A stretch of DNA of 40,675 nucleotides, from IMG/VR virus record IMGVR_UViG_3300049000_000025, positions 1 to 40,675 of that record; one strand, written 5' to 3'. Below the pieces are notes generated by a model. That model did no database searches, was not told the DNA's origin, and was given only the letters and a program-made list of their open reading frames with translations. The stretch's first letter is position 1, and every line of letters begins with the position of its first letter. Of this stretch, positions 2,443 through 29,932 are shown one piece after another. This DNA is from a virus. Its lineage: Duplodnaviria; Caudoviricetes. The position numbers were made by a program, and so were the translations under genes.

Positions 2443-2823
2443 ATGGCGACATCATGTGAAGTAAGACTCGGAGGCTATGAAGGCGACGAGGACAACGATT
2501 TCAACTGCTGGACTCAGACAACGAAGTGCGGTCACAAGTGTTTTGAGTGCGGCAAAACGATTCCTGGCGGAATTGCCCATGAACGCGCTACATGGTACGA
2601 CGAAGACCGAAAGCAGCGAACCGTATTTACCTGTGCCGTGTGCGCCGAAATCGCATGGGCATTCTACGACTGCCGCCTATATGGGCACCTGTGGGACAGC
2701 ATGGACGAAGAGTTTGGCAAGGTCACCACGGGATGCTTCACGAAGCTGAGAACCCCTGCTGCGAAGGCAGAATTTCAGCGCCAATGGATGAAGTGGGCTG
2801 GACTTGTACCACAGGCAGTTTAG
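2443..2823 (+). CDS. Zn-binding hypothetical phage protein
   Basis: HKCFECGKTI..G..HE and TCAVC motifs. Confidence 0.7.
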   Translation: MATSCEVRLGGYEGDEDNDFNCWTQTTKCGHKCFECGKTIPGGIAHERATWYDEDRKQRTVFTCAVCAEIAWAFYDCRLYGHLWDSMDEEFGKVTTGCFTKLRTPAAKAEFQRQWMKWAGLVPQAV

Positions 2824-2841
2824 AGAGCGAGGGTAAGGAAG

Positions 2842-3159
2842 ATGATACGAAGATACGATTGGAACACGGGCAAGGAGACTCCGAGTGGCGAGCATGTAAT
2901 GTACTCCGATTATGCCGCGCTTGGGCTTCAACTGGAAGCAGCCCTCACCGGCACCTACAAAGCCGTTCAGATGGCCAAAGAGTCCTTTGACAAGCTACAG
3001 GCCACCTTCGATGAAGTCCTGGCGCAGAAGGAAGCGCTGGAGAAGGAGCTGGCGATTGCGAAGCGTTTGGTTGAAAGAGCGACTCACTTCATGGACGGAC
3101 GTTCGGCATGGACCAAGAACGCTAAATCCTTTCTGGAGGCACCCCATGAAGCCAAATGA
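2842..3159 (+). CDS. Coiled-coil hypothetical protein
   Basis: GEHVMYSDYAAL followed by heptad pattern; RBS AAGGA. Confidence 0.7.
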   Translation: MIRRYDWNTGKETPSGEHVMYSDYAALGLQLEAALTGTYKAVQMAKESFDKLQATFDEVLAQKEALEKELAIAKRLVERATHFMDGRSAWTKNAKSFLEAPHEAK

Positions 3160-3367
3160 GAAGAGGTTTTATACCTTCAGCAGCTTACAACTGTACGCAA
3201 TTGAGGCACTTGGTCAAGGCGCTCATGGGTTCCTTATACATCCACGGACTGCCAGATCCCTCGTTAGCCATAAGTTGATCGAGCCGAATGGCCCGATGGC
3301 ATATCGGCTCACCGAACGCGGAACGAAATTATTCAATGCCTTGGAGGTTCCAGTTGAAGCCAAATAA
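3146..3367 (+). CDS. Small winged-helix-like protein
   Basis: RTARSLVSHKLIE...YRLTERG; RBS GGAGG. Confidence 0.6.
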   Translation: MKPNEKRFYTFSSLQLYAIEALGQGAHGFLIHPRTARSLVSHKLIEPNGPMAYRLTERGTKLFNALEVPVEAK

Positions 3368-4118
3368 GCCCACGCAAGAGGAAGAAGAGCGCGCTGCGTT
3401 TGCCAGAGAGAACCGCGCAAAGTGGCCTAACAATTCCACCCAGCCCACGGTAGGCGAGCAGACCCACAAACCAGCGGTCGAAGGCTATGAAGATCATGTC
3501 TCTTATATCCGCTGCACCTGTGGACAGGAATTTCATTCTATGCCGGGTAAGGGACTAGATAATTACCGGTCGTTCGACCAGCACTGCAAACAAGGAAATG
3601 CCTCTCCCACTCCCATTCCGATAGGCGAGCAAGCCGAAGGAATAGTTACCTGCAAATGGTGCGGAACATCGGCTGACGCCCAAGTTTGCCCAGAATGCTT
3701 CGCAACCCTGAATGAGACCGGTGTGCAGATTCTCGATCCCTTGACCGCAGACGAAATTGCCGACCGGTTAGGAGAGATCCACAAATACGTGCAGCTACAA
3801 ATTAACGATAAGTGGGACTGGATGAGCGCGGCGTTCTACACCGAACAGCTCCGCACCTTGTCGAACATGGCGTCTCCCATACCTATTCCGGTGGGTGAGC
3901 AAGCGGAACCGTTTTGCCTTTGGTGCGGTGACGAACCTGACCATAAATGCGGAGATGGGCATTCATGTGGAACCTGCTGTGCGATCTGGGGAGGCCTGAC
4001 GCTCGAAGATCCGCATGCTTATAGCTGGCTAAGTGAGCGCGTGAGGCCGCGCATCGTTGCTGCCCTTGCTGAGGTCGAACGATTGAAAAGGGAGGTATCG
4101 AATGCAGAAGAAAACTGA
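3354..4118 (+). CDS. Modular Cys-rich protein with repeated P(I/V)GEQ linkers
   Basis: TTG start after GGAGG; three CxC/CxxC modules separated by repeated linkers. Confidence 0.65.
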   Translation: MKPNKPTQEEEERAAFARENRAKWPNNSTQPTVGEQTHKPAVEGYEDHVSYIRCTCGQEFHSMPGKGLDNYRSFDQHCKQGNASPTPIPIGEQAEGIVTCKWCGTSADAQVCPECFATLNETGVQILDPLTADEIADRLGEIHKYVQLQINDKWDWMSAAFYTEQLRTLSNMASPIPIPVGEQAEPFCLWCGDEPDHKCGDGHSCGTCCAIWGGLTLEDPHAYSWLSERVRPRIVAALAEVERLKREVSNAEEN

Positions 4119-5965: not shown

Positions 5966-6181
5966 ATGAACCCAGAATTCGAAGTTCACATCTTAAACGA
6001 AGCAGGAATCGAGAAGGCAAAGGCAATCGCAGAGTCCTTTGACGAGCTTCTAACTCACCTTAAGGGCACACTTCCCCAGGGCCGTTACTTGTCCCTTGTC
6101 AGTACAAAGCTCGAAGAAGCATCATTCTTCGCAAAGAAGGCCATGGCATCATCCCCAGAAAATCAAAAGGAGAAGGCATGA
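5966..6181 (+). CDS. Acb2/Tad1-like helical-hairpin protein (candidate cyclic-nucleotide sponge)
   Basis: F..H..N..G..K...IA..F..L..........P.GR.LSL..TKLEEA.F.A.KA.A pattern; RBS AGGAG. Confidence 0.65.
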   Translation: MNPEFEVHILNEAGIEKAKAIAESFDELLTHLKGTLPQGRYLSLVSTKLEEASFFAKKAMASSPENQKEKA

Positions 6182-6771
6182 AACGAGCACTCGCAGGCTT
6201 GGCCCTGAGTCTCACGCTTATGACAGGATGCGCCCATAACGCTTCTGTCGGTTCGCCTACGTCCACAAGCACCCCGTACCAGAAGGCCGCTGTTGGCATG
6301 AGCAATTTTGCCAGCGACGTGCAGCAGGTACAGACCATCGAAATCAACCTGTACAAGGGCACAGCGGTGTCCGCAGACTTCCACCGTACGTTTCAGTCGT
6401 CCATGAAGCAGGTGAGTGTCTACGGGCCTCAGATCGATGCCCTGATTGCTGCTGGAGCTGCCCCTGCAACCATCCAAGCCAAGATCTCAACCGCGCTTGG
6501 CCTGGTATCGAATATCCTGCTTTCGACGAACACGCTTGACCCCAACACCGCCGCCCAGCTCAAGGTCGCGGTACAGGCACTCCAACTGCTTCTCAACAAT
6601 GTCTCGCTGTCACTGAACGCGACGACTTCGGAGGTAACACATGGATCCAGCACAGATCGCACTGCTTTTGGAACAGCTTATTTCTCTCGGGTTTACTATT
6701 TACCAGCAGGTCCAGGCACAAGATACGACTGGATCGGTAAAACCACTGGCGGATATCTTATCCGAGGCTGA
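6178..6771 (+). CDS. Predicted lipoprotein, helical
   Basis: MKR + hydrophobic stretch + MTGC lipobox. Confidence 0.75.
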   Translation: MKRALAGLALSLTLMTGCAHNASVGSPTSTSTPYQKAAVGMSNFASDVQQVQTIEINLYKGTAVSADFHRTFQSSMKQVSVYGPQIDALIAAGAAPATIQAKISTALGLVSNILLSTNTLDPNTAAQLKVAVQALQLLLNNVSLSLNATTSEVTHGSSTDRTAFGTAYFSRVYYLPAGPGTRYDWIGKTTGGYLIRG

Positions 6772-6841
6772 TGCCAAGTTCGCCCAGATCGGCGCAACGG
6801 CTGATTCGGAACTGGCCAAACTTCCATCAGAAAACGCCTGA
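6641..6841 (+). CDS. Small amphipathic helical protein overlapping the lipoprotein 3' end
   Basis: Strong RBS GGAGGT; 66 aa. Confidence 0.7.
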   Translation: MDPAQIALLLEQLISLGFTIYQQVQAQDTTGSVKPLADILSEADAKFAQIGATADSELAKLPSENA

Positions 6842-7662: not shown

Positions 7663-7866
7663 AAACGTGGAGTAGCAACATGGAGCAACAATGGTGAATA
7701 TACGATACCACATTTATATCTTGCCAATCTTCAATTCATGCGCCTATTGTGTCGCCATGACAAACGACGACTTCTACCCGCACGCAAAAGCATCCGTCCG
7801 CATGTGGCGCTCCTGCTTCATTACCGGCGCATTCTTCTACGCTATTCTGCTGGGCTGGCTGGTAAG

Positions 7867-7959
7867 TTAGGCATTCTCGTCCATGAACCAGATGAGCGCA
7901 AGCATGGAGAACACTGCTGCTACCACGCCCAGCACGGTCGCTATGGCGTGCCAGTTCAT
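7867..7959 (-). CDS. 30-aa single-TM peptide in the lysis cassette
   Basis: MNWHAIATVLGVVAAVFSMLALIWFMDENA; ATGA coupling. Confidence 0.5.
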   Translation of the reverse strand: MNWHAIATVLGVVAAVFSMLALIWFMDENA

Positions 7960-8246
7960 TTATCCACCACAGGTACTGCCTTGGGATCATCAGGAATCGC
8001 ATGAGCAGCCACCACCTGCGGTTCTGCAATGCCAGGTACCTTTGCCAGCACAGTGTCAGGGTCTTTCTGAATCGCGCCAATCCAGATCTTGCCCACCACC
8101 TGAAATGCGCCAAGCCAGAGAACATGTTTTGGTGCAATCAGCGAGTTGAGCGGAGGCGCGAGGAATGCGGCCGAAGTCGCCAAGGTTGTGGTAAGAATGC
8201 TGGATACGGTGGACTTCCAGCTTGCAAATGCGTTTTGTAAGCTCAT
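7956..8246 (-). CDS. Holin-like membrane protein
   Basis: SWKST..., two hydrophobic segments; coupled to the lysozyme; RBS GGAGG. Confidence 0.6.
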   Translation of the reverse strand: MSLQNAFASWKSTVSSILTTTLATSAAFLAPPLNSLIAPKHVLWLGAFQVVGKIWIGAIQKDPDTVLAKVPGIAEPQVVAAHAIPDDPKAVPVVDK

Positions 8247-8674
8247 ACGGCCTCCAGAAATAGCGCTTTCTCTTTCCCTCTGCGATTCAACAGGCCCTGG
8301 CTGATATTGTTTCCAGACCAGATCCATTGCAAGAACTGAAACGCCGCGCTTTCGGTAGCACCCTCGTTCAGCAGGTGGAGCAGCGTGGATTTCGCCAAAG
8401 CATTGACGCCAACATTGTAGGTAAACGATACGAGCGCGTCGAACTGGTTCTGGTTGATAGGCACTTTGACGAGAGCATTTACCGCTTCCTCAGAGTGCTG
8501 CAAGTCGGCCTTGAGCAGGTCTTCTGCCTCTTCCATGGTGATGTGCTGGCCCATCTTTACGCCGTACGTGGTGCCGTATCCTATAGTAGGTATGCCTGCG
8601 CTGTCCTTGTACGCGTCGGCGCGGAAGCCTTCGAAGCTGCGAACGAGGGCTATGCCCTTCTCAGAGATGTTCAC
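8243..8674 (-). CDS. Endolysin, GH24 phage lysozyme
   Basis: FEG...AYKDSAGIPTIGYG (E-D-T triad), QFDALVSFTYNVG, GLLNRR..E. Confidence 0.95.
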   Translation of the reverse strand: MNISEKGIALVRSFEGFRADAYKDSAGIPTIGYGTTYGVKMGQHITMEEAEDLLKADLQHSEEAVNALVKVPINQNQFDALVSFTYNVGVNALAKSTLLHLLNEGATESAAFQFLQWIWSGNNISQGLLNRRGKEKALFLEAV

Positions 8675-9006
8675 CTCTTAAACAGCCCGAGAGCCTCAAG
8701 GGTACCCACGATGCCGAGGCCGATATAGACGTACGTTGCTATCTTGTCTTGCTTATCTGAGATTTTCCCTTGATTCAACTCGATCTTGTCCAAGGTTTTC
8801 GTATTCTCTTTATGTTTTTCGTCGATCTCGTGGCGCATGTCCACTAAATCCTGCTTAGCGTTTCTCTCTTTATGCGTATCTCGCATGTCGATGTATGCCC
8901 TTAGCCGTTCTTCAAGCGGGGGCTTACCGTTTCCAAGGATGGCATGTTCCAGCCTCTTCACCGTGTCATTCACGCGGAACCAATCCTCGTCACGAATCTC
9001 AGCCAC
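8671..9006 (-). CDS. Coiled-coil protein with C-terminal TM (lysis-associated)
   Basis: Heptad pattern then YVYIGLGIVGTLEALGLF; directly upstream of the lysozyme. Confidence 0.7.
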   Translation of the reverse strand: MAEIRDEDWFRVNDTVKRLEHAILGNGKPPLEERLRAYIDMRDTHKERNAKQDLVDMRHEIDEKHKENTKTLDKIELNQGKISDKQDKIATYVYIGLGIVGTLEALGLFKR

Positions 9007-9123
9007 TTACCGCTCCGAACATGGGATAAATTTCTTTTCACTCGCACTTGCTACCTTTAAGTGCATTATTTTCAACGCCAAGACAAGACCAATCATGAGC
9101 AGCAAAAGTAGAGGGCGACGCAT
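9007..9123 (-). CDS. 38-aa peptide with signal-peptide-like N-terminus
   Basis: MRRPLLLLLMIGLVLALKIMHLKVASA-SEKKFIPCSER; RBS GGAGG/GGAG. Confidence 0.55.
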   Translation of the reverse strand: MRRPLLLLLMIGLVLALKIMHLKVASASEKKFIPCSER

Positions 9124-9215
9124 CTCCAAGCCTCCACGAAATTTAGAATCAGCCCTTCCCGATTTTACGGCGCGATTACTGCACTTTCCGGGCTGCACTA
9201 TCGTACCATTTCGGC

Positions 9216-9716
9216 ATGACATTCGTAGAGATTTTGAATACTGTGGCCAACCTATTGCTGTTCGGCCTTATGATCTGGAGGAAGCCGCGACTCCCCACGC
9301 TTTGGGTGTGGCAGATCGCTTCCATTCTGTTGATCGTTGCGCTCGACTGCTCCCGGAATACGTCCGACTACGCAACGGTATGGTGGGGCGCGGCGCTACT
9401 TGGGATGATACTGGAATTTGGTACGCTCGTGGAGCTTTTAGAGTCGCGCTTCTCCTGGGTGAACGAAGGCGCAATCATCCTAATGATTCTTCATCTCTTC
9501 TTCAAAGGTGCAGAGCATTACTTCTGGCGTGATGATGAAGCATTCGCATGGCAACTACGTCATATAGCCGTTGTGCTAAACGAGATTCTCGGGGGATACT
9601 TGTGCTTGCTCGTCTATTTACATCCCAAAGGAGAAACGTATGTCCTGCGAAGACAAAAAGCCACAGGAACCGAAGTTGCCAAAGCCTACCGAACCAGTAA
9701 TTCGCCCGCTCACTGA
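9216..9716 (+). CDS. Polytopic membrane protein (about 5 TM)
   Basis: Alternating hydrophobic segments; opposite strand to flanking operons. Confidence 0.75.
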   Translation: MTFVEILNTVANLLLFGLMIWRKPRLPTLWVWQIASILLIVALDCSRNTSDYATVWWGAALLGMILEFGTLVELLESRFSWVNEGAIILMILHLFFKGAEHYFWRDDEAFAWQLRHIAVVLNEILGGYLCLLVYLHPKGETYVLRRQKATGTEVAKAYRTSNSPAH

Positions 9717-9765
9717 CCTGGATCCTCCCCCACCCAAGGGCGGACACCCCGTCAATAACGGGTAA
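9640..9765 (+). CDS. 41-aa proline-rich peptide
   Basis: RBS AAAGGAG; MSCEDKKPQEPKLPKPTEPVIRPLTDLDPPPPKGGHPVNNG. Confidence 0.65.
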   Translation: MSCEDKKPQEPKLPKPTEPVIRPLTDLDPPPPKGGHPVNNG

Positions 9766-9770
9766 TAGCA

Positions 9771-9792
9771 AGCGCCGCCGGTATGGGGCGCT
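9771..9792. terminator. Hairpin between convergent genes
   Basis: AGCGCC...GGCGCT stem. Confidence 0.35.
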
Positions 9793-9794
9793 GC

Positions 9795-10928
9795 TTATTT
9801 GTTGGAGGTTTTGCTCAAGAATGTGGCCTTATCCATCATGTACTGGTTGGCCAGCCCGCCGAGCTTGAAGGATTTGGAACCTTGCACCACATTCCATTGC
9901 GTTGTGCCATCAAATGAGACCGGCATCGAGTCTGCTGTCACATAAAGCGCACATTTACCGCCCGACGTGGCATCGTAGGTTCCGCCATTGACTTTGACTC
10001 CTGTAGCCGCTCCTTCTACCGTGATCGAGCATCCAGATACGTTGCTTACGGTCTCGCGCGTATAGGTGGCTCCGGTGCCTCCTTTGCCGTCCAACCCGTT
10101 GATTAACGTCCCGCCCGTTCCCATTGCGAGATTGAAGATCTTGTCATCGTGCGCTGTACCGTTGACGCCGATCTGTAAGCCAAAGCCGCGCCCATCGTGG
10201 ATGGAGTTGTAGGCAGCATCGTCGTTCGGGCAGATGGCCGTGATGCCGCCCTCATTGTTCGAAACGTTGTTCTTGTAGAAACCGTTCTTCGAGCAAGTTG
10301 CGTTATAGTACCCGCGATCCTGAATACCCATCTGAGTGACGGTCTGAACCGTGTTCCCCTGAACGAGAGCGCCGGTGAGACCTCCCAGCTGGATACCAGC
10401 TTCGTTATAGTCAAGACCTACCGTGTCATCGATACGGCCGATGTAGTTATTGGTGATCTGCACGCCGGTGATCTGCGGGGCACCCACGTAATTGCAGGCG
10501 AGGACACTTATTCCAGAGTATCCAGTGTGATCGATGATGACGTGATCGATGATAAGCCCGTTCGGATTGACAGTTTTCGAACAAACTGCGGAGATTCCCG
10601 GTCCGGTGGATTTGGTGACGTAGATGTAGGAGATCTTTACATTCTGGTGATTGCCGACAACGATGCCACCCACGATCGTGGGAGATGAGCTACCGGAGCG
10701 CGTGAACGTGCAAGAGTCGCAGGGGACGATAAGCGGTGTGAACCAACTGCTTTTGCCATCCAGGATGAGCGTGTCGCCCTTTTTCATTGCAGAGGTAGCC
10801 TTCACGAGCGAAGCGAACGGCTTGGCAGTATCTGTACCTGCATTGAGGTCGGAACCACTGTTGCTGACATAATAGGTAGCGCAATAGAGAGGTGCGCTGG
10901 CAAGAAGAAGAAGAGCAAGTTTACGCAT
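9795..10928 (-). CDS. Right-handed beta-helix (pectate-lyase-like) protein with signal peptide
   Basis: ATYYVSNSGSD.NAGT..KPFASL.KA..GDT N-cap, Asn/Gly-rich rungs; MRKLALLLLASAPLYC leader. Confidence 0.8.
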   Translation of the reverse strand: MRKLALLLLASAPLYCATYYVSNSGSDLNAGTDTAKPFASLVKATSAMKKGDTLILDGKSSWFTPLIVPCDSCTFTRSGSSSPTIVGGIVVGNHQNVKISYIYVTKSTGPGISAVCSKTVNPNGLIIDHVIIDHTGYSGISVLACNYVGAPQITGVQITNNYIGRIDDTVGLDYNEAGIQLGGLTGALVQGNTVQTVTQMGIQDRGYYNATCSKNGFYKNNVSNNEGGITAICPNDDAAYNSIHDGRGFGLQIGVNGTAHDDKIFNLAMGTGGTLINGLDGKGGTGATYTRETVSNVSGCSITVEGAATGVKVNGGTYDATSGGKCALYVTADSMPVSFDGTTQWNVVQGSKSFKLGGLANQYMMDKATFLSKTSNK

Positions 10929-11467: not shown

Positions 11468-14400
11468 CTATTTCGCGTACCAGAGTGTTCCATCGTAAGT
11501 AAAGGTGTACTGAACGCCAGCCACCGCCGTCATTGCCGCTGCGATATTTCCACCGGTTACAGTTGTCCATGCTCCATCCGCGATGAGCGTAAGAGATCCA
11601 ACAAATCCAGCATAGGGTGGAGTTATGGTGGAAATGCTCGATGTTCCCGTAACGTGCGTTACCGATGCAGTCGGAGCAATCGTGGAAGCTGAAGGTATAG
11701 CGGTACCGAGGCTATTCGTTGGTACCGCGCGATAGGTGTATGTGCTCTGCCAGGAACATCCTCCGGTCGAAGCACTTGTGAGCACCACTTTGAAATATCC
11801 TGTGGCCCCGGGAGCTACCAGGGTTCCTCCCGATATTGCTTCAGAGTTGATTCCCGCCATGGTTATGGTGAAGGCTGTCGGATTCTGAACGCGGTACACG
11901 TAGCCGGTAAGTCCTAAGCATTCCGGAAGGCTCCATGTCGCTGCGGCGGTGACCGCCGCTGTCGTGAAGTTGTCGGCCGAGGTAAGGGCCTGGGTGGCCG
12001 AAGTATAGACCCCCGGGGATGTCGCTGTGGTTCCGTCAGCCGATAGGATAGCGCGGGCGAATGTAGGGCCATACGTGCCCGTCTGGAGTGCGGCTGAGGG
12101 ATGAACGCCATCAGGGAAGTTGGTGGTATTCGCTGCTGCTCCGTCTGCCCCAAGGACAGGGTTGGCCGCAATATCAATCAAGTTGTAACTCGCTGCGGAG
12201 GTACTGGCCCTAACCAGTGCGTTGTATTGATTTTTGAGAGAGTCGCACGTAGAGCCAGAATTAACTCCGGCTCCATTTCCAGTGCGGGAAAGCATGGTTC
12301 CAAGGAATACTTGATTCGCTCCCAGCTTTTTCAAGGTGCGGACACCGGCAAGAACGTTCTGCCAAGCTACGGCCAGCGTGAAAGAAGAACCGGACTGGCA
12401 GAGATCATTTGTTGCCGCCGACCCCATGTACCCATAGATCCTTCCTGAAGAGTTATCGAAATACTTCTGGTAGGGCTGGAGACCGGTTGCGATCCAAGCG
12501 GCCATAGTAGATCCGCCGATAGCAGGAATCAGGGGAATGTAGGTCGCGGACGATAGTCCTGTATTTGCCGTCGTGCAAGGTGGCTGGTTGGAATTGACGC
12601 CTGCTTCGATGGACGTTATCCCGCAGAGGATGCGGACGGTGGCGGAAGTGTAGTTGTTGACGAATGAACCGATCTGGAAACCCTTGTTCGTGACGACGTT
12701 ATTCCAAGCCAAGGCATTCTTATTAATTAAGGCGGTCATGTTGGTCTGCGAGGTTGGCTGCGTAGAGTAGACCGCGAATCCCAAGAGGGTGCCGTTCTTC
12801 ATGGCGCAGGTGCCGAGTGTGGTGCAGCTCGTACCCTGAGATCCGAAGACAGCAAAGGGAGCACCCGTTGGCATGGTAACGGAACCTAGGCTGGTCGCCC
12901 CCACGATGGTGGTCAATTGCTGCGTGTTCACATAAGCCCATGTGTTGGTTGTGCCGCCTGAGAAAGTCAGTACTTGCACCTGATCTCCGAGGAGAGCAAG
13001 AGCCTTTAGGGCGGACGCGCCATGGTAATTGAAGATCTCAGCGCCGAGCGTGTTCACTACAGTCTGATCGCCAGCAAGCCAAAAGGAAGAACCGCCAGTT
13101 GGTACGGAACCCAGACCGGCGAATACCCGCCCACCCGTGGAAGTCGCGGCGGCGGCGTTTACCGAAGAGACGACCTGGAAGGTAACGGGGGTGGTAATGG
13201 TCGGGCAGGAGATGTAACCGGTGTTGGTGTTACCGGCGAGGAGGGTCTTACCCACCCATGCCGGATCGGTGGAGGCGGAACCGGTGATATTGCATACCGT
13301 TCCGTTGATGATTCCGGTAAGGGTGGTGCCAGAACCTTCGTGGAGGTCGAACACGTCCACCAGAGTTGCGTCCGTGTTATCGAATGTAGGAAGGGATTGA
13401 CCTGAGTCCGCCAGGCCATTCCCCGCCGGATTGAAAATGGCGACGTTGCCCGCAGTTCCTGAAATGCTGCCCGCAGTGGAAAGTATGTAGTTCGTTCCAT
13501 TCCACGTGTAGCTGGAGGAAGGAAGGGTGTTTTCATCTATCACGGGCACGGAAATGGCTCCCCCGGTGACTGCCGAAATGGTGTCGGTGGGGGTAATGGC
13601 CTTGGGGACGATGACGCGACCACCGCCATTGGCAACACAAGCTGTTACGGCCTTCTGTATGGAGTCGTAAGGAGCGGTAAGGGATGCCGAGGAAACCACG
13701 TAGCAGGTGGTGTTCTGCTGGCGCACATCCATTCTGCCAGTTCCAGAATTGAGCTTCCACGTACTAAGAGAAGAGCTGTTGGACGTAGCAATAGTTCCAG
13801 CCAAAGTAAGATTACCGTCGATTCCGACGTCAGAACCAAAACGAGATGGAAGGCTAAAGAATGCTCCATATGCGGTCTGTACCGAAGCAGTGCCATAGGC
13901 GATTGTGCTGGCGTTCGAGATGTTATAGACCGGAGCGATGGTGGATACGCGGGCAGATGTCTCCATATAGCCCCAGATAATAGCCCCAACAGTTTTGGCG
14001 GATGCGGTTGTTCCGTAGAATCCGCGAGTCAGGCCAAGGAGGTGTGTAGCGTCGATAGAAGACCAGCAAAATGACTCAGCAAAACCAGAAAGAGCGACGT
14101 ATCCGCAGCCGCTGGACGGGAAGCCCGTAGTGGAGGTTACCGTGAAGGAAGTATCAGAGGCAGTAGCAGAAGCCGAAAGAGATAAGGAGGAAGCTGTGGC
14201 GAATAAGTAATTCGTTTGGGAGGCGCATGCAGATCCGGCACAGTAGGGGTTCGCACCGCCTACAAGAATGGTTTGGCCAAGCGCATTTGTGCCCAGCAGC
14301 GGAGCGGAGACGGGCACTGCAAGGCCATTGATCGCCGTGGCATTGGCTGCGGTGGTTGCATTGGCTACTGTGCCTGATGGAATCACATAATCCGTACCGG

Positions 14401-14560
14401 CAGCAGCAGGAGTGCACCCGCCCGCGCCGTCACCCTTCTGGAGGCCAGATCCTGTGGTGATGCAACCCGTTCCACCGCCGCCACCGCCGTTGAGCGGTCC
14501 GCCACCGATCTGCGCAATCAACGGAGAAGCCAGAAAGAGAAGTGCAAACATAAATTTCAT
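11468..14560 (-). CDS. Large tail-fibre/receptor-binding-like protein with SGNH-hydrolase-like domain and signal peptide
   Basis: T/S/G-rich; TSI, ATND and DGVHP SGNH-like blocks; MKFMFALLFLASPLIA-Q leader; RBS AAGGAG. Confidence 0.75.
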   Translation of the reverse strand: MKFMFALLFLASPLIAQIGGGPLNGGGGGGTGCITTGSGLQKGDGAGGCTPAAAGTDYVIPSGTVANATTAANATAINGLAVPVSAPLLGTNALGQTILVGGANPYCAGSACASQTNYLFATASSLSLSASATASDTSFTVTSTTGFPSSGCGYVALSGFAESFCWSSIDATHLLGLTRGFYGTTASAKTVGAIIWGYMETSARVSTIAPVYNISNASTIAYGTASVQTAYGAFFSLPSRFGSDVGIDGNLTLAGTIATSNSSSLSTWKLNSGTGRMDVRQQNTTCYVVSSASLTAPYDSIQKAVTACVANGGGRVIVPKAITPTDTISAVTGGAISVPVIDENTLPSSSYTWNGTNYILSTAGSISGTAGNVAIFNPAGNGLADSGQSLPTFDNTDATLVDVFDLHEGSGTTLTGIINGTVCNITGSASTDPAWVGKTLLAGNTNTGYISCPTITTPVTFQVVSSVNAAAATSTGGRVFAGLGSVPTGGSSFWLAGDQTVVNTLGAEIFNYHGASALKALALLGDQVQVLTFSGGTTNTWAYVNTQQLTTIVGATSLGSVTMPTGAPFAVFGSQGTSCTTLGTCAMKNGTLLGFAVYSTQPTSQTNMTALINKNALAWNNVVTNKGFQIGSFVNNYTSATVRILCGITSIEAGVNSNQPPCTTANTGLSSATYIPLIPAIGGSTMAAWIATGLQPYQKYFDNSSGRIYGYMGSAATNDLCQSGSSFTLAVAWQNVLAGVRTLKKLGANQVFLGTMLSRTGNGAGVNSGSTCDSLKNQYNALVRASTSAASYNLIDIAANPVLGADGAAANTTNFPDGVHPSAALQTGTYGPTFARAILSADGTTATSPGVYTSATQALTSADNFTTAAVTAAATWSLPECLGLTGYVYRVQNPTAFTITMAGINSEAISGGTLVAPGATGYFKVVLTSASTGGCSWQSTYTYRAVPTNSLGTAIPSASTIAPTASVTHVTGTSSISTITPPYAGFVGSLTLIADGAWTTVTGGNIAAAMTAVAGVQYTFTYDGTLWYAK

Positions 14561-14574
14561 AGTGCTCCTTTGAT

Positions 14575-15288
14575 TTACCAAGTGGCCATCGCTACGCGGA
14601 CCCAGGTGTTTGTTGCAATCGCATAGCAGTGGTATGCAATTCCGGAAATGACACTTTCTCGTATTTCACCCGTCACGCCAGTTGCTGTACTGGTGGTCGG
14701 ACAAGGCAGAGAAAATCTAAGCGCCCTGATGGTAGTACTGCCATCATCATTGAGAGATCGAGACAGATTAGGAGCCAACATGCTCCACGATTCAGGGCAA
14801 TTCCCTGGCCCAGAACCCGAGAATCCCCCAAACTCTAAATGCAAACTGTTGTCCTGGATGAAGACTCCGGAACCAGAACCTCCGCAGTAATATCCTTGCA
14901 AATGAGGGGTTATTCGCCATTGCTGATAGGCCGAAGGGAATCCGGAGGCAATACCTCCCACGGAAGCCATCCTGAATCCGCGTGAAACGATGTACGACTC
15001 GCTTCCCATGGGTGTGCCAACGGTTCCATTGCCTACTACCAGGTCAAACCCACCGTTATTGTAGTTGCTGGTCAACCCTCCTGTTAATCCGGCATCTCCT
15101 GATTGGTTGACCGGCGTATAGGGAGCGGCAACGATTTCACGGCTACCATTGGTACCGACGAAGGAAATGGCCTGCGCGGTAGGCTGGCTCACATTACCCG
15201 TACCCGTTCCCTGGTAAAGCGTAGTGGTATTGATCTGCCCATGAGCCATTGATGCAATACCAAAACAAAGAAGTAATAATTTTCTCAT
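14575..15288 (-). CDS. Fibre-like protein with signal peptide
   Basis: C-terminal PTTSTATGVTGEI....Y.C.A.ATNTWVRVAMATW fibre motif; MRKLLLLCFGIASMAHG-Q leader. Confidence 0.72.
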   Translation of the reverse strand: MRKLLLLCFGIASMAHGQINTTTLYQGTGTGNVSQPTAQAISFVGTNGSREIVAAPYTPVNQSGDAGLTGGLTSNYNNGGFDLVVGNGTVGTPMGSESYIVSRGFRMASVGGIASGFPSAYQQWRITPHLQGYYCGGSGSGVFIQDNSLHLEFGGFSGSGPGNCPESWSMLAPNLSRSLNDDGSTTIRALRFSLPCPTTSTATGVTGEIRESVISGIAYHCYAIATNTWVRVAMATW

Positions 15289-28917: not shown

Positions 28918-29325
28918 CTAATAGATCGCATAGAACACCTGTATTTGTGCAGCTGTCGGTGCCGAGGAAAGATAAAGGTAAACGCCTTGATTCCTTAATA
29001 CTGGTAGCTGCACATCTGCGTTGGGCTGAAGGTTATAGACGTCGAAATAGCTCGCATGCCCTGTCCAGAGTGGCGACAGATTGGTCACTGGCGAAGTTGT
29101 GCATGTGCTTTCCGTGCACCCCATCAAGCGATAGTTGGCAGGAGTTGCCGATTGCGTTACGCCTGTGTAGACCGCGCATATATGGATGTCACCGTTGCCA
29201 GGAGGTGGCGCTGGGAGCACCAGATTGTAGCCCGATGTCGTGATGCTAACGCCAATATGTGAGGTGCAGCGCTGGGCGAATGCCGGAGCCGCGAGAATAA
29301 GCAGGAGAAGCGCGAGTTTCTTCAT
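28918..29325 (-). CDS. Secreted beta-rich protein, paralog 2
   Basis: MKKLALLLLILAAPAFA-Q signal; 4 Cys. Confidence 0.75.
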   Translation of the reverse strand: MKKLALLLLILAAPAFAQRCTSHIGVSITTSGYNLVLPAPPPGNGDIHICAVYTGVTQSATPANYRLMGCTESTCTTSPVTNLSPLWTGHASYFDVYNLQPNADVQLPVLRNQGVYLYLSSAPTAAQIQVFYAIY

Positions 29326-29522
29326 AAGTAGGCCTTTTCTGTAAAGACTGGATTTTCCGGCGGATAAATCAAGAGAGCAGAGTCAATATACCGATCTGTC
29401 CCCACTATGCATCTACCGCCAGCACGGGAGACTCCTTCAGGCGTAGCCAGCCTCTTCGACTTCACCATCTCATCGCTAGCCGCGTCGTAGCATTCCCACT
29501 CAAAAACCAGTTCCTTGTCCAT
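29322..29522 (-). CDS. Hypothetical protein
   Basis: Coupled at both ends. Confidence 0.6.
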   Translation of the reverse strand: MDKELVFEWECYDAASDEMVKSKRLATPEGVSRAGGRCIVGTDRYIDSALLIYPPENPVFTEKAYL

Positions 29523-29932
29523 CAGTAGGCCCCGTAAATGACTTGCGCCACTGCCGTAGCAGCACCGCTCAGCGTGAGGTACAGCCCGTACCCCTTGCGC
29601 AACACGATCTGCGCACTCGGATTAGGTGGAAGGTTATAGGTGTCGTACAGGTTGGCATGGCCGGGGAGAAGTGGCGTAACTGGGTAGAAATCAGAGCAAG
29701 CCGCTGTCCTGCATGCTAGAAGCTGGTAATTCGCGGGTGTTGAACCCTGCGTCACCTGCACCGTGATCGAGCATAGGAGAATCGTCTGGTCGCCACTGTT
29801 GCCCACGATGCCGACATTCCCCGATGCGCTGGTAGATGCCGTTGCTGGTGTATTACATACCGGCGTCGGCACACCCTGCGCGTGCGCGGATGCTGCCCAG
29901 AGAATCATTGCAACCCAGAAGATGTGCTTCAT
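29522..29932 (-). CDS. Secreted beta-rich protein, paralog 1
   Basis: MKHIFWVAMILWAASAHA-Q signal; 4 Cys. Confidence 0.75.
   Translation of the reverse strand: MKHIFWVAMILWAASAHAQGVPTPVCNTPATASTSASGNVGIVGNSGDQTILLCSITVQVTQGSTPANYQLLACRTAACSDFYPVTPLLPGHANLYDTYNLPPNPSAQIVLRKGYGLYLTLSGAATAVAQVIYGAY

What the first reader, a model, noticed from the sequence alone, without database searches (positions are those of the whole stretch)
9007..9765. Membrane protein flanked by two tiny peptide genes at the head of the lysis operon: candidate peptide-sensing module
Seen: a counter-oriented island encodes an approximately 5-TM protein (9216..9716) and an overlapping 41-aa Pro-rich peptide with a strong RBS (9640..9765, ...DLDPPPPKGGHPVNNG). 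Divergently, a 38-aa peptide (9123..9007) has a signal-like leader ending ASA that would release SEKKFIPCSER; its stop abuts the first lysis gene. The TM protein (LMIWRK..P..W...Y..WWG...IL.F..L.E) resembles, from memory only, uncharacterised acidobacterial membrane proteins found beside Pro-rich peptides. Inference: a receptor/peptide pair unrelated to arbitrium (no TPR receptor here) that tunes lysis timing or excludes superinfection.
Basis: partly seen in the sequence, partly recalled or inferred. Interest (0 to 1): 0.75.

Follow-up and report, generated by a model that had tools for sequence, protein, structure and literature searches.

The report
Phage mini-receptor cassette beside lysis genes
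This soil phage and two otherwise unrelated phage lineages, one of them grown in culture on an Acidobacterium, carry the same backwards-facing two-gene unit at their cell-bursting genes: a five-helix membrane protein that is likely a cut-down host receptor and a tiny proline-rich protein, which together likely help set when the infected cell bursts.

Summary
The coordinates are right, but the unit has two genes, not three. The 166-aa five-helix protein (9216-9716) and the overlapping 41-aa Pro-rich ORF (9640-9765) belong together. In two homologues the protein tail is not conserved while the +1 frame is (0 and 1 of 1000 shuffles). The same counter-oriented pair, with a leaderless -10 box and an AAGGAG-type internal start, sits at the lysis genes of cultured Acidobacteriota podoviruses Tunturi 1/2 (gp19, peptide fused in frame, also ending KGGH) and of IMG/VR phage G002. 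No integrase was found in any of the four genomes. Helices 1-3 weakly match an uncharacterised acidobacterial seven-helix family, which this scan found earlier on other DNA; helices 4-5 likely equal its helices 6-7. The 38-aa ORF has no homologue and no fixed place, so its role as secreted ligand is unsupported. Best reading (0.35): an early-expressed membrane sensor with a cytoplasmic microprotein partner that tunes lysis timing. Binding and function are untested. Tunturi 2 on Tunturiibacter makes this directly testable.

The parts
9204..9209 (+). Predicted -10 box (TACCAT) 6 nt before the ATG; leaderless start of the cassette
   Evidence: TAnnnT lies 6, 7 and 7 nt before the TM start in the window, Tunturi 2 and G002, none with an SD. 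Background is 20 of 1402, 26 of 1921 and 42 of 1780 ATGs. The consensus scan did not list it.
9216..9716 (+). Five-helix membrane protein, 166 aa; residues after about 139 are an overprinted tail; likely a host seven-helix protein lacking helices 4-5
9628..9633 (+). Shine-Dalgarno AAGGAG of the microprotein (reads PKG in the TM frame)
   Evidence: Same AAGGAG + 6 nt + ATG in Tunturi 2; AAGGGG in G002
9640..9765 (+). 41-aa Pro-rich microprotein, no signal peptide, ends DPPPPKGGHPVNNG
   Evidence: +1 frame conserved in P0002 and P0004; matches the Tunturi 2 gp19 tail, 0 of 1000 shuffles, shared KGGH; 44-aa Pro-rich ORF in the same frame in G002
9767..9795 (.). Hairpin (-17.0 kcal/mol) followed by TATTTGTT, between converging genes; predicted terminator
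   Evidence: A like hairpin follows the peptide in G002 (-18.9). Not flagged by the consensus scan.
9007..9123 (-). 38-aa one-helix ORF with SD, coupled to the next gene; likely a late-strand accessory, not part of the conserved cassette
   Evidence: no homologue; no counterpart in G002
8671..9006 (-). 111-aa gene with C-terminal hydrophobic helix, first gene of the lysis cluster (context; holin-like role is inferred)
   Evidence: Overlaps the endolysin start; weak match to Tunturi 2 gp20, 6 of 1000 shuffles; no Pfam family over cut-off
8243..8674 (-). Endolysin (context)
   Evidence: PF00959, E 1.3e-45
9795..10928 (-). Last upstream late gene, beta-helix protein, converging on the cassette (context)
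   Evidence: PF13229, E 1.2e-6

Best explanation
The unit is a two-gene cassette, a five-helix membrane protein plus an overlapping proline-rich microprotein, that sits backwards at the lysis genes of three phage lineages and likely acts as a sensor, derived from a host receptor-like family, that delays or tunes lysis. Shown: the pair, its overlap and internal start, the leaderless -10 pattern, the orientation and place, and no detectable integrase. Inferred: (1) the host polymerase makes a leaderless transcript early, before the late transcript reaches the lysis genes; (2) the protein inserts N-out, C-in (positive-inside rule) and is a host seven-helix protein that lost helices 4-5; (3) the microprotein has no export signal, stays in the cytoplasm and binds or gates the membrane protein, as its in-frame fusion to the C-tail in Tunturi suggests; (4) a periplasm-side cue, such as a host peptide or superinfection, changes the complex so that it holds back the holin step, like lysis inhibition but with unrelated proteins. 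Steps 3 and 4 have no direct evidence.
For: Place: Tunturi 2 gp19 came from a whole-genome search (rank 2 of 2658 ORFs, E 0.014) and starts 430 bp from the endolysin start in a 63-kb genome. In G002 the TM gene lies inside the lysis cluster, 22 bp from the endolysin start, with back-to-back -10 boxes. G002 shares only the endolysin with the window (1 of 74 ORFs), and Tunturi 2 shares the endolysin and one weak ORF. No tyrosine integrase in 4 of 4 carrier genomes while Tunturi 3, which lacks the cassette, has one; no large serine recombinase either. Homology to the seven-helix family: the A2 profile ranks its three members 1, 2 and 4 of 7734 ORFs, and their profile ranks P0001 and P0004 2 and 3 behind a member; sole hit in the 309-kb Tunturi 5 genome, E 0.003. 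G002 helices 4-5 match Tunturi 5 helices 6-7 (1 of 1000 shuffles) and not helices 4-5 (707 of 1000). Polar residues N12, Q33, E67, E73, H93, K97, E100, R115 and N122 are invariant in four sequences.
Against: No experiment, no expression data and no known family. The seven-helix homology is weak (E 0.003-1.5; hhalign probability 34-58%, and 0.8% against one sequence), and most decoy ORFs are not membrane proteins. That the parent family is a receptor is itself only this scan's earlier inference. G002's place beside an endolysin is partly built into the search (loci); its TM scored E 2.7 (rank 3 of 12981) and 63 of 1000 shuffles against the window protein. The region between tail and lysis genes is a common landing site for accessory genes (own knowledge), and the cassette may travel with the endolysin. 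The full seven-helix cassette of Tunturi 5 lies between a gene annotated as ADP-ribosyltransferase and a NUDIX gene, with no lysis gene among the 5 annotated neighbours. The window is rated 71% complete, so an integrase could be missing from it. The genomic places of P0002 and P0004 could not be seen.
Confidence: 0.35

Rival explanations
1. Jammer of host peptide signalling: the cut-down protein is a decoy or dominant-negative copy of the host seven-helix receptor and the microprotein blocks its partner; the place at the lysis genes is incidental.
For: Descent from the host family with loss of two helices. Tunturi 5 carries a full host-type precursor plus seven-helix gene away from lysis genes. 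Early leaderless start.
Against: Same place and orientation in three lineages, and promoter overlap with the endolysin in G002.
Confidence: 0.2
2. Superinfection exclusion or a membrane toxin-antitoxin pair: the membrane protein blocks DNA entry or depolarises the cell, and the microprotein restrains it. P22 SieB with its internally started Esc is the recalled model.
For: Small multi-helix protein with buried polar residues and a co-translated partner made from an internal start. Early expression pattern.
Against: No PADLOC match for 5 of 6 proteins and only a partial Csx19 hit at E 0.009 for P0004. No integrase in the carriers, so no lysogen to protect, although lytic phages also exclude.
Confidence: 0.2
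3. Lysate signal: the microprotein is a ligand that lost its signal peptide, is released only when the cell bursts, and is read by the membrane protein of neighbouring infected cells, which then delay lysis.
For: The parent cassettes have secreted Pro-containing precursors upstream. The peptides differ between phages. The G002 peptide repeats VGPKPP twice, which by eye resembles AVGGGAPRP and AVGGTNPRP in the plasmid precursors (untested).
Against: In Tunturi the peptide is fused to the inferred cytoplasmic tail. Peptides do not match the Tunturi 5 precursor above chance (101 and 822 of 1000 shuffles). A 41-46-aa peptide would have to cross the outer membrane.
Confidence: 0.12
4. One reading: the 38-aa ORF is a secreted propeptide whose C-terminal 11 residues bind the membrane protein.
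For: SD and hydrophobic leader. Divergent from the TM gene, and Tunturi gp18 is also about 40 aa with one helix and PC near the end.
Against: No homologue among proteins of 22-70 aa; gp18 match not significant (181 of 1000) and on the other side of the cassette; nothing equivalent beside the cassette in G002; many late genes of this phage begin with similar leaders.
Confidence: 0.07

Closest known systems
Acidobacterial secreted-peptide / seven-helix / one-helix-partner cassette
   Same: Weak homology over helices 1-3 and probably 6-7; a Pro-rich small gene next door; Acidobacteriota context.
   Different: Five helices; peptide lies downstream and overlaps, with no signal peptide; leaderless start instead of an SD; no one-helix partner downstream; sits at phage lysis genes.
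Tunturi 1/2 gp19 (XOB79171.1, XOB77093.1; PMC11924767, 'unknown function', No_PHROG in Table S3)
   Same: True counterpart: 37 of 132 aligned residues identical, same place and orientation, peptide ending KGGH.
   Different: Peptide is in frame with the TM protein; it is not annotated as a separate product and no function is proposed.
Lysis inhibition by antiholins: T4 RI/RIII with holin T (PMC11413866, PMC8385771) and ICP1 (PMC7182436); abstract starts seen only
   Same: Proposed role: an envelope sensor plus a small cytoplasmic helper that hold back lysis in a lytic phage.
   Different: No sequence or family link found; RI is a soluble periplasmic protein; holin binding is not tested here.
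DUF6338 operon with Pro-rich small proteins of Pseudomonas stutzeri (PMC10433244, passages read)
   Same: Membrane-protein gene followed by Pro-rich microproteins; those were detected by proteomics, so such ORFs can be real.
   Different: No DUF6338 domain in the window; one peptide; function unknown in both.
Arbitrium / RRNPP peptide systems (PMC10075063, passages read)
   Same: Phage-borne, adjacent small ORF and putative receptor.
   Different: No TPR, 166 aa, membrane-embedded, peptide not Sec-type, no integrase found.

Membership tests
RRNPP / arbitrium | Receptor of 250-500 aa | tested here: not met
   166 aa; criterion from PMC10075063
RRNPP / arbitrium | Receptor with TPR repeats | tested here: not met
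   No Pfam family at E<=1; five hydrophobic helices
RRNPP / arbitrium | Sec-exported propeptide | tested here: inconclusive
   41-aa ORF has no hydrophobic leader (sequence); the 38-aa ORF has one, but no predictor was available and it is not conserved
RRNPP / arbitrium | Small ORF directly adjacent to the receptor gene | tested here: met
Acidobacterial peptide-7TM cassette (unpublished) | Sequence homology to the seven-helix family | tested here: met
   Weak but reciprocal; only three family members were in hand
Acidobacterial peptide-7TM cassette (unpublished) | Seven membrane helices | tested here: not met
   Five; likely helices 1-3 plus 6-7
Acidobacterial peptide-7TM cassette (unpublished) | Co-oriented secreted precursor upstream | tested here: not met
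   Upstream lies a 92-bp gap and a divergent ORF; none upstream in Tunturi 2 or G002
Acidobacterial peptide-7TM cassette (unpublished) | One-helix partner gene downstream | tested here: not met
   Downstream is the soluble Pro-rich ORF, then a hairpin
Acidobacterial peptide-7TM cassette (unpublished) | GPCR-like fold | tested here: inconclusive
   No Foldseek match at E<=0.001; VIA top Z 11.8 among generic helical bundles, several GPCRs at Z 9-10.5
DUF6338 plus Pro-rich microproteins | DUF6338 (PF19865) domain | tested here: not met
DUF6338 plus Pro-rich microproteins | Pro-rich small ORF behind the membrane gene | tested here: met
Two-component spanin (Rz/Rz1) | Single-helix inner-membrane subunit with periplasmic domain (recalled) | tested here: not met
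   Five helices, short loops
Two-component spanin (Rz/Rz1) | Overlapping Pro-rich subunit is a lipoprotein with a signal peptide (recalled) | tested here: not met
   Cys3 has no hydrophobic leader; the Tunturi and G002 peptides have no N-terminal Cys
Lysis-inhibition antiholins | Binds the holin and delays lysis after superinfection | not testable with these tools
   Needs phage genetics

The most novel reading that the evidence does not exclude
Lytic Acidobacteriota phages have cut a host GPCR-like peptide receptor down to five helices and paired it with a signal-less copy of the ligand that escapes only when the cell bursts. Infected neighbours read it as 'lysis happened nearby' and delay their own lysis: phage-to-phage signalling through a membrane receptor in a two-membrane host, with no lysogeny involved.
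Probability: 0.12. Interest if true: 0.92.

Novelty: new variant of a known kind. Interest (0 to 1): 0.68.

Why it matters
Control of lysis timing by sensing is known from few phages, and peptide signalling by phages from Bacillota TPR systems. A conserved sensor-like cassette at the lysis genes of phages of Acidobacteriota, abundant and little-studied soil bacteria, would add a new mechanism. It would also give the first experimental handle on the host seven-helix family. Cultured phage-host pairs exist: Tunturi 1/2 carry the short form and Tunturi 5 the full form, all on Tunturiibacter psychrotolerans.

Tried and rejected
Family scans: no Pfam or PHROG family for the TM protein or either peptide; no Pfam family over cut-off for 8 relatives. 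Locus searches with the TM protein or its alignments found no true relative: viral contigs, metagenome contigs, genomes (two 24-residue Enterocloster hits, L001/L002, dropped as chance), phage and plasmid records. P0003, a spider repeat protein, was dropped as chance. Searches for phage relatives by the 111-aa gene and the capsid, and for more seven-helix members in viral contigs, found nothing. Of 80 endolysin-bearing viral records, 50 were searched whole; 1 of 50 matched, G002, which was in the profile. Yersinia phage hits at E 9 were dropped. Fold searches were uninformative. Atlas feature hits were under 0.9; its structure hits to two Acidobacteriota clusters (TM 0.66) served as a lead only. 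No RNA holder listed. Run X2 holds 151-base contigs identical to parts of the cassette; same study, not independent. Spanin, arbitrium and DUF6338 membership were rejected (see table). The 71-aa extension of the 38-aa ORF (ATG 9222) and the 248-aa ORF 8786-9532 were set aside because the SD favours 9123 and nothing supports the latter. Literature searches for a description of this cassette (open-access library only) found none; bioRxiv supplements could not be seen.

Full report
Setting. The window is one virus record, rated 71% complete, from a soil metagenome. It encodes portal, terminase, scaffold, capsid, head-closure and ejection proteins; the best portal matches are P22-like, at 35-41% identity. 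Late genes run on the minus strand down to a beta-helix gene (10928-9795) and continue with a lysis cluster (9006-7956) that holds a phage lysozyme. The finding lies between them.

Observation. All three ORFs are as described. The 166-aa protein has five hydrophobic helices in a moderate model (pLDDT 66.5) and no Pfam or PHROG family. It has no SD. The 41-aa ORF has AAGGAG 6 nt before its ATG. The 38-aa ORF has GGAGG, and its stop abuts the next start.

The 41-aa ORF is under selection. Protein searches gave two true homologues, P0002 (53%) and P0004 (58%); their DNA could not be fetched. Over residues 1-139 they share 77 and 81 of 139 residues with the window protein; in register beyond that, 1 of 27 and 5 of 18. 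Back-translating their tails, the +1 frame fits the window peptide better than 1000 of 1000 and 999 of 1000 tail shuffles, and better than all 110 and 122 body windows. The +2 frame gave 649 and 9 of 1000, so the P0004 test is the weaker one. The tail is thus a by-product of the overlapping gene, and PKG/PKE likely encodes its SD.

Where the membrane protein comes from. The Atlas gave two Acidobacteriota clusters as nearest models (TM 0.66), and earlier notes of this scan describe an acidobacterial peptide plus seven-helix cassette. I took 1.59 Mb of Acidobacteriota plasmid DNA; the three-sequence profile ranked a seven-helix gene of Acidisarcina pACPOL3 first of 7732 ORFs, at E 1.5. That gene and a frameshifted copy on pACPOL1 lie between a secreted-looking ORF and a one-helix gene. 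It led to gp204 of phage Tunturi 5 (E 0.08). With these three members the ranks are reciprocal: members at 1, 2 and 4 of 7734; P0001, P0004 and P0002 at 2, 3 and 13 in the reverse search. gp204 is the sole hit in its 309-kb genome (E 0.003, residues 6-76). Profile-profile probability is 34-58% and 0.8% against a single sequence. The link is therefore likely but weak. Window helices 4-5 matched nothing directly, but the G002 member's helices 4-5 match gp204 helices 6-7 (1 of 1000) and not 4-5 (707 of 1000). This suggests loss of the middle hairpin, on one pair of sequences.

The same cassette in other phages. Scanning Tunturi 2-5 whole, the second hit of 2658 ORFs (E 0.014) was Tunturi 2 gp19. 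The order there is virion protein gp17, 44-aa gp18, gp19 reversed, gp20, endolysin gp21, gp22, as in the window. gp19 aligns over all five helices (37 of 132 identical; 3 of 1000 shuffles; helices 4-5 alone 129 of 1000). It ends in a 46-aa Pro-rich stretch behind AAGGAG-6 nt-ATG that matches the window peptide (0 of 1000) and ends KGGH. Tunturi 1 is 99.5% identical and counts as the same lineage. The paper lists gp19 as unknown function (PMC11924767; passages and three rows of Table S3 seen). The four-member profile then ranked an ORF of locus L004 third of 12981 (E 2.7). There, in the complete 44.9-kb phage G002, a 146-aa gene lies reversed between a 123-aa gene and the endolysin. It has a 44-aa ORF with 16 Pro in the +1 frame, and a hairpin follows. 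Its sequence match is weak (63 of 1000) and its place beside an endolysin is partly built into, so I count it by architecture. G002's host is not known; it shares four ORFs with Tunturi phages and one with the window. In all three lineages a TAnnnT box lies 6-7 nt before the TM start, with no SD, against 1.4-2.4% of ATGs. In G002 the endolysin has its own TATAAT 6 nt before its ATG, back to back with that box. In G002 and Tunturi 2 the peptide is the only SD-bearing Pro-rich ORF of 30-60 aa (1 of 2 and 1 of 5 such ORFs); in the window it is 1 of 2 among 3. No integrase family was found in the four carriers; Tunturi 3 has one and lacks the cassette. The window's host is inferred to be Acidobacteriota from these links only.

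The 38-aa ORF. No homologue was found (22-70 aa only). G002 has 22 bp at that place. Tunturi gp18 is alike in size and ends near PC, but lies on the other side and scores 181 of 1000. It is more likely a one-helix late accessory coupled to the lysis cluster.

Mechanism. Topology is inferred from basic residues in loop 1 and the tail: N out, C in. The Tunturi fusion then places the peptide in the cytoplasm, and no version has an export signal. Buried polar residues are kept in four sequences. With early-type leaderless expression, lytic carriers and a fixed place at the lysis genes, I favour a sensor plus cytoplasmic partner that tunes lysis (0.35). No interaction was predicted or measured.

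Comparison and novelty. It fails RRNPP criteria (PMC10075063, passages), and is neither a spanin pair (features recalled) nor DUF6338 (PMC10433244, passages). It would work like lysis inhibition (abstract starts only) without being a member. SieB/Esc is recalled, from no call. Seven literature searches found no description of the cassette; the library lacks most subscription papers and bioRxiv supplements. The scan's notes held the host cassette on other genomes but nothing on this sequence or genome. Verdict: a real, undescribed, conserved two-gene cassette with an untested function and cultured carriers; interest 0.68.

Noticed in passing
L173:2164-2475 and 2507-3367 (Tunturi 5, PP885688, around 143.4-144.6 kb): An unannotated 103-aa ORF with a signal-like leader and a Pro/Thr/Asp-rich body ending PNPDGIIEPVPGRRW lies directly upstream of seven-helix gp204: a cultured jumbo phage with the full host-type peptide and seven-helix cassette. 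The annotated gp204 start (2438) is likely too early.
   Followed up: partly
L004:7956-7994 (G002): Back-to-back -10 boxes (TATAAT and TATACT) give leaderless starts to both the endolysin and the reversed TM gene, 22 bp apart, so the two promoters would compete.
   Followed up: partly
window 9179-9199; L179 about 3498-3516: Short direct repeats upstream of the TM gene (CTGCACT twice, 14 bp apart, in the window; TGGCCCA twice, 11 bp apart, in Tunturi 2), possible regulator sites; seen by eye.
   Followed up: no
L172:1438-2252 (Acidisarcina pACPOL1): The seven-helix gene is frameshifted near its 5' end; upstream precursor has core AAVGGTNPRP, against AVGGGAPRP on pACPOL3 (L145).
   Followed up: partly
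window 6178-6841 (+): A 197-aa ORF with a lipoprotein-like leader (LMTGC) and a 66-aa ORF end the plus-strand arm facing the lysis cluster; no spanin was recognised in the lysis cluster itself.
   Followed up: no
window 7691-8246 (-): Behind the endolysin lie three small hydrophobic ORFs (about 96, 30 and 59 aa); Tunturi 2 also has a run of small membrane ORFs there (gp22-gp24), without significant similarity for the first (595 of 1000).
   Followed up: partly
window 28918-29932 (-): Two similar ORFs of 135 and 136 aa with signal-like leaders lie between terminase and portal; many late genes here and in G002 start with such leaders.
   Followed up: no
window 11468-14581 (-): The C-terminal quarter of the 1037-aa tail-region protein matches a Tunturi 5 protein (35% over 256 aa, E 3e-23).
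   Followed up: no
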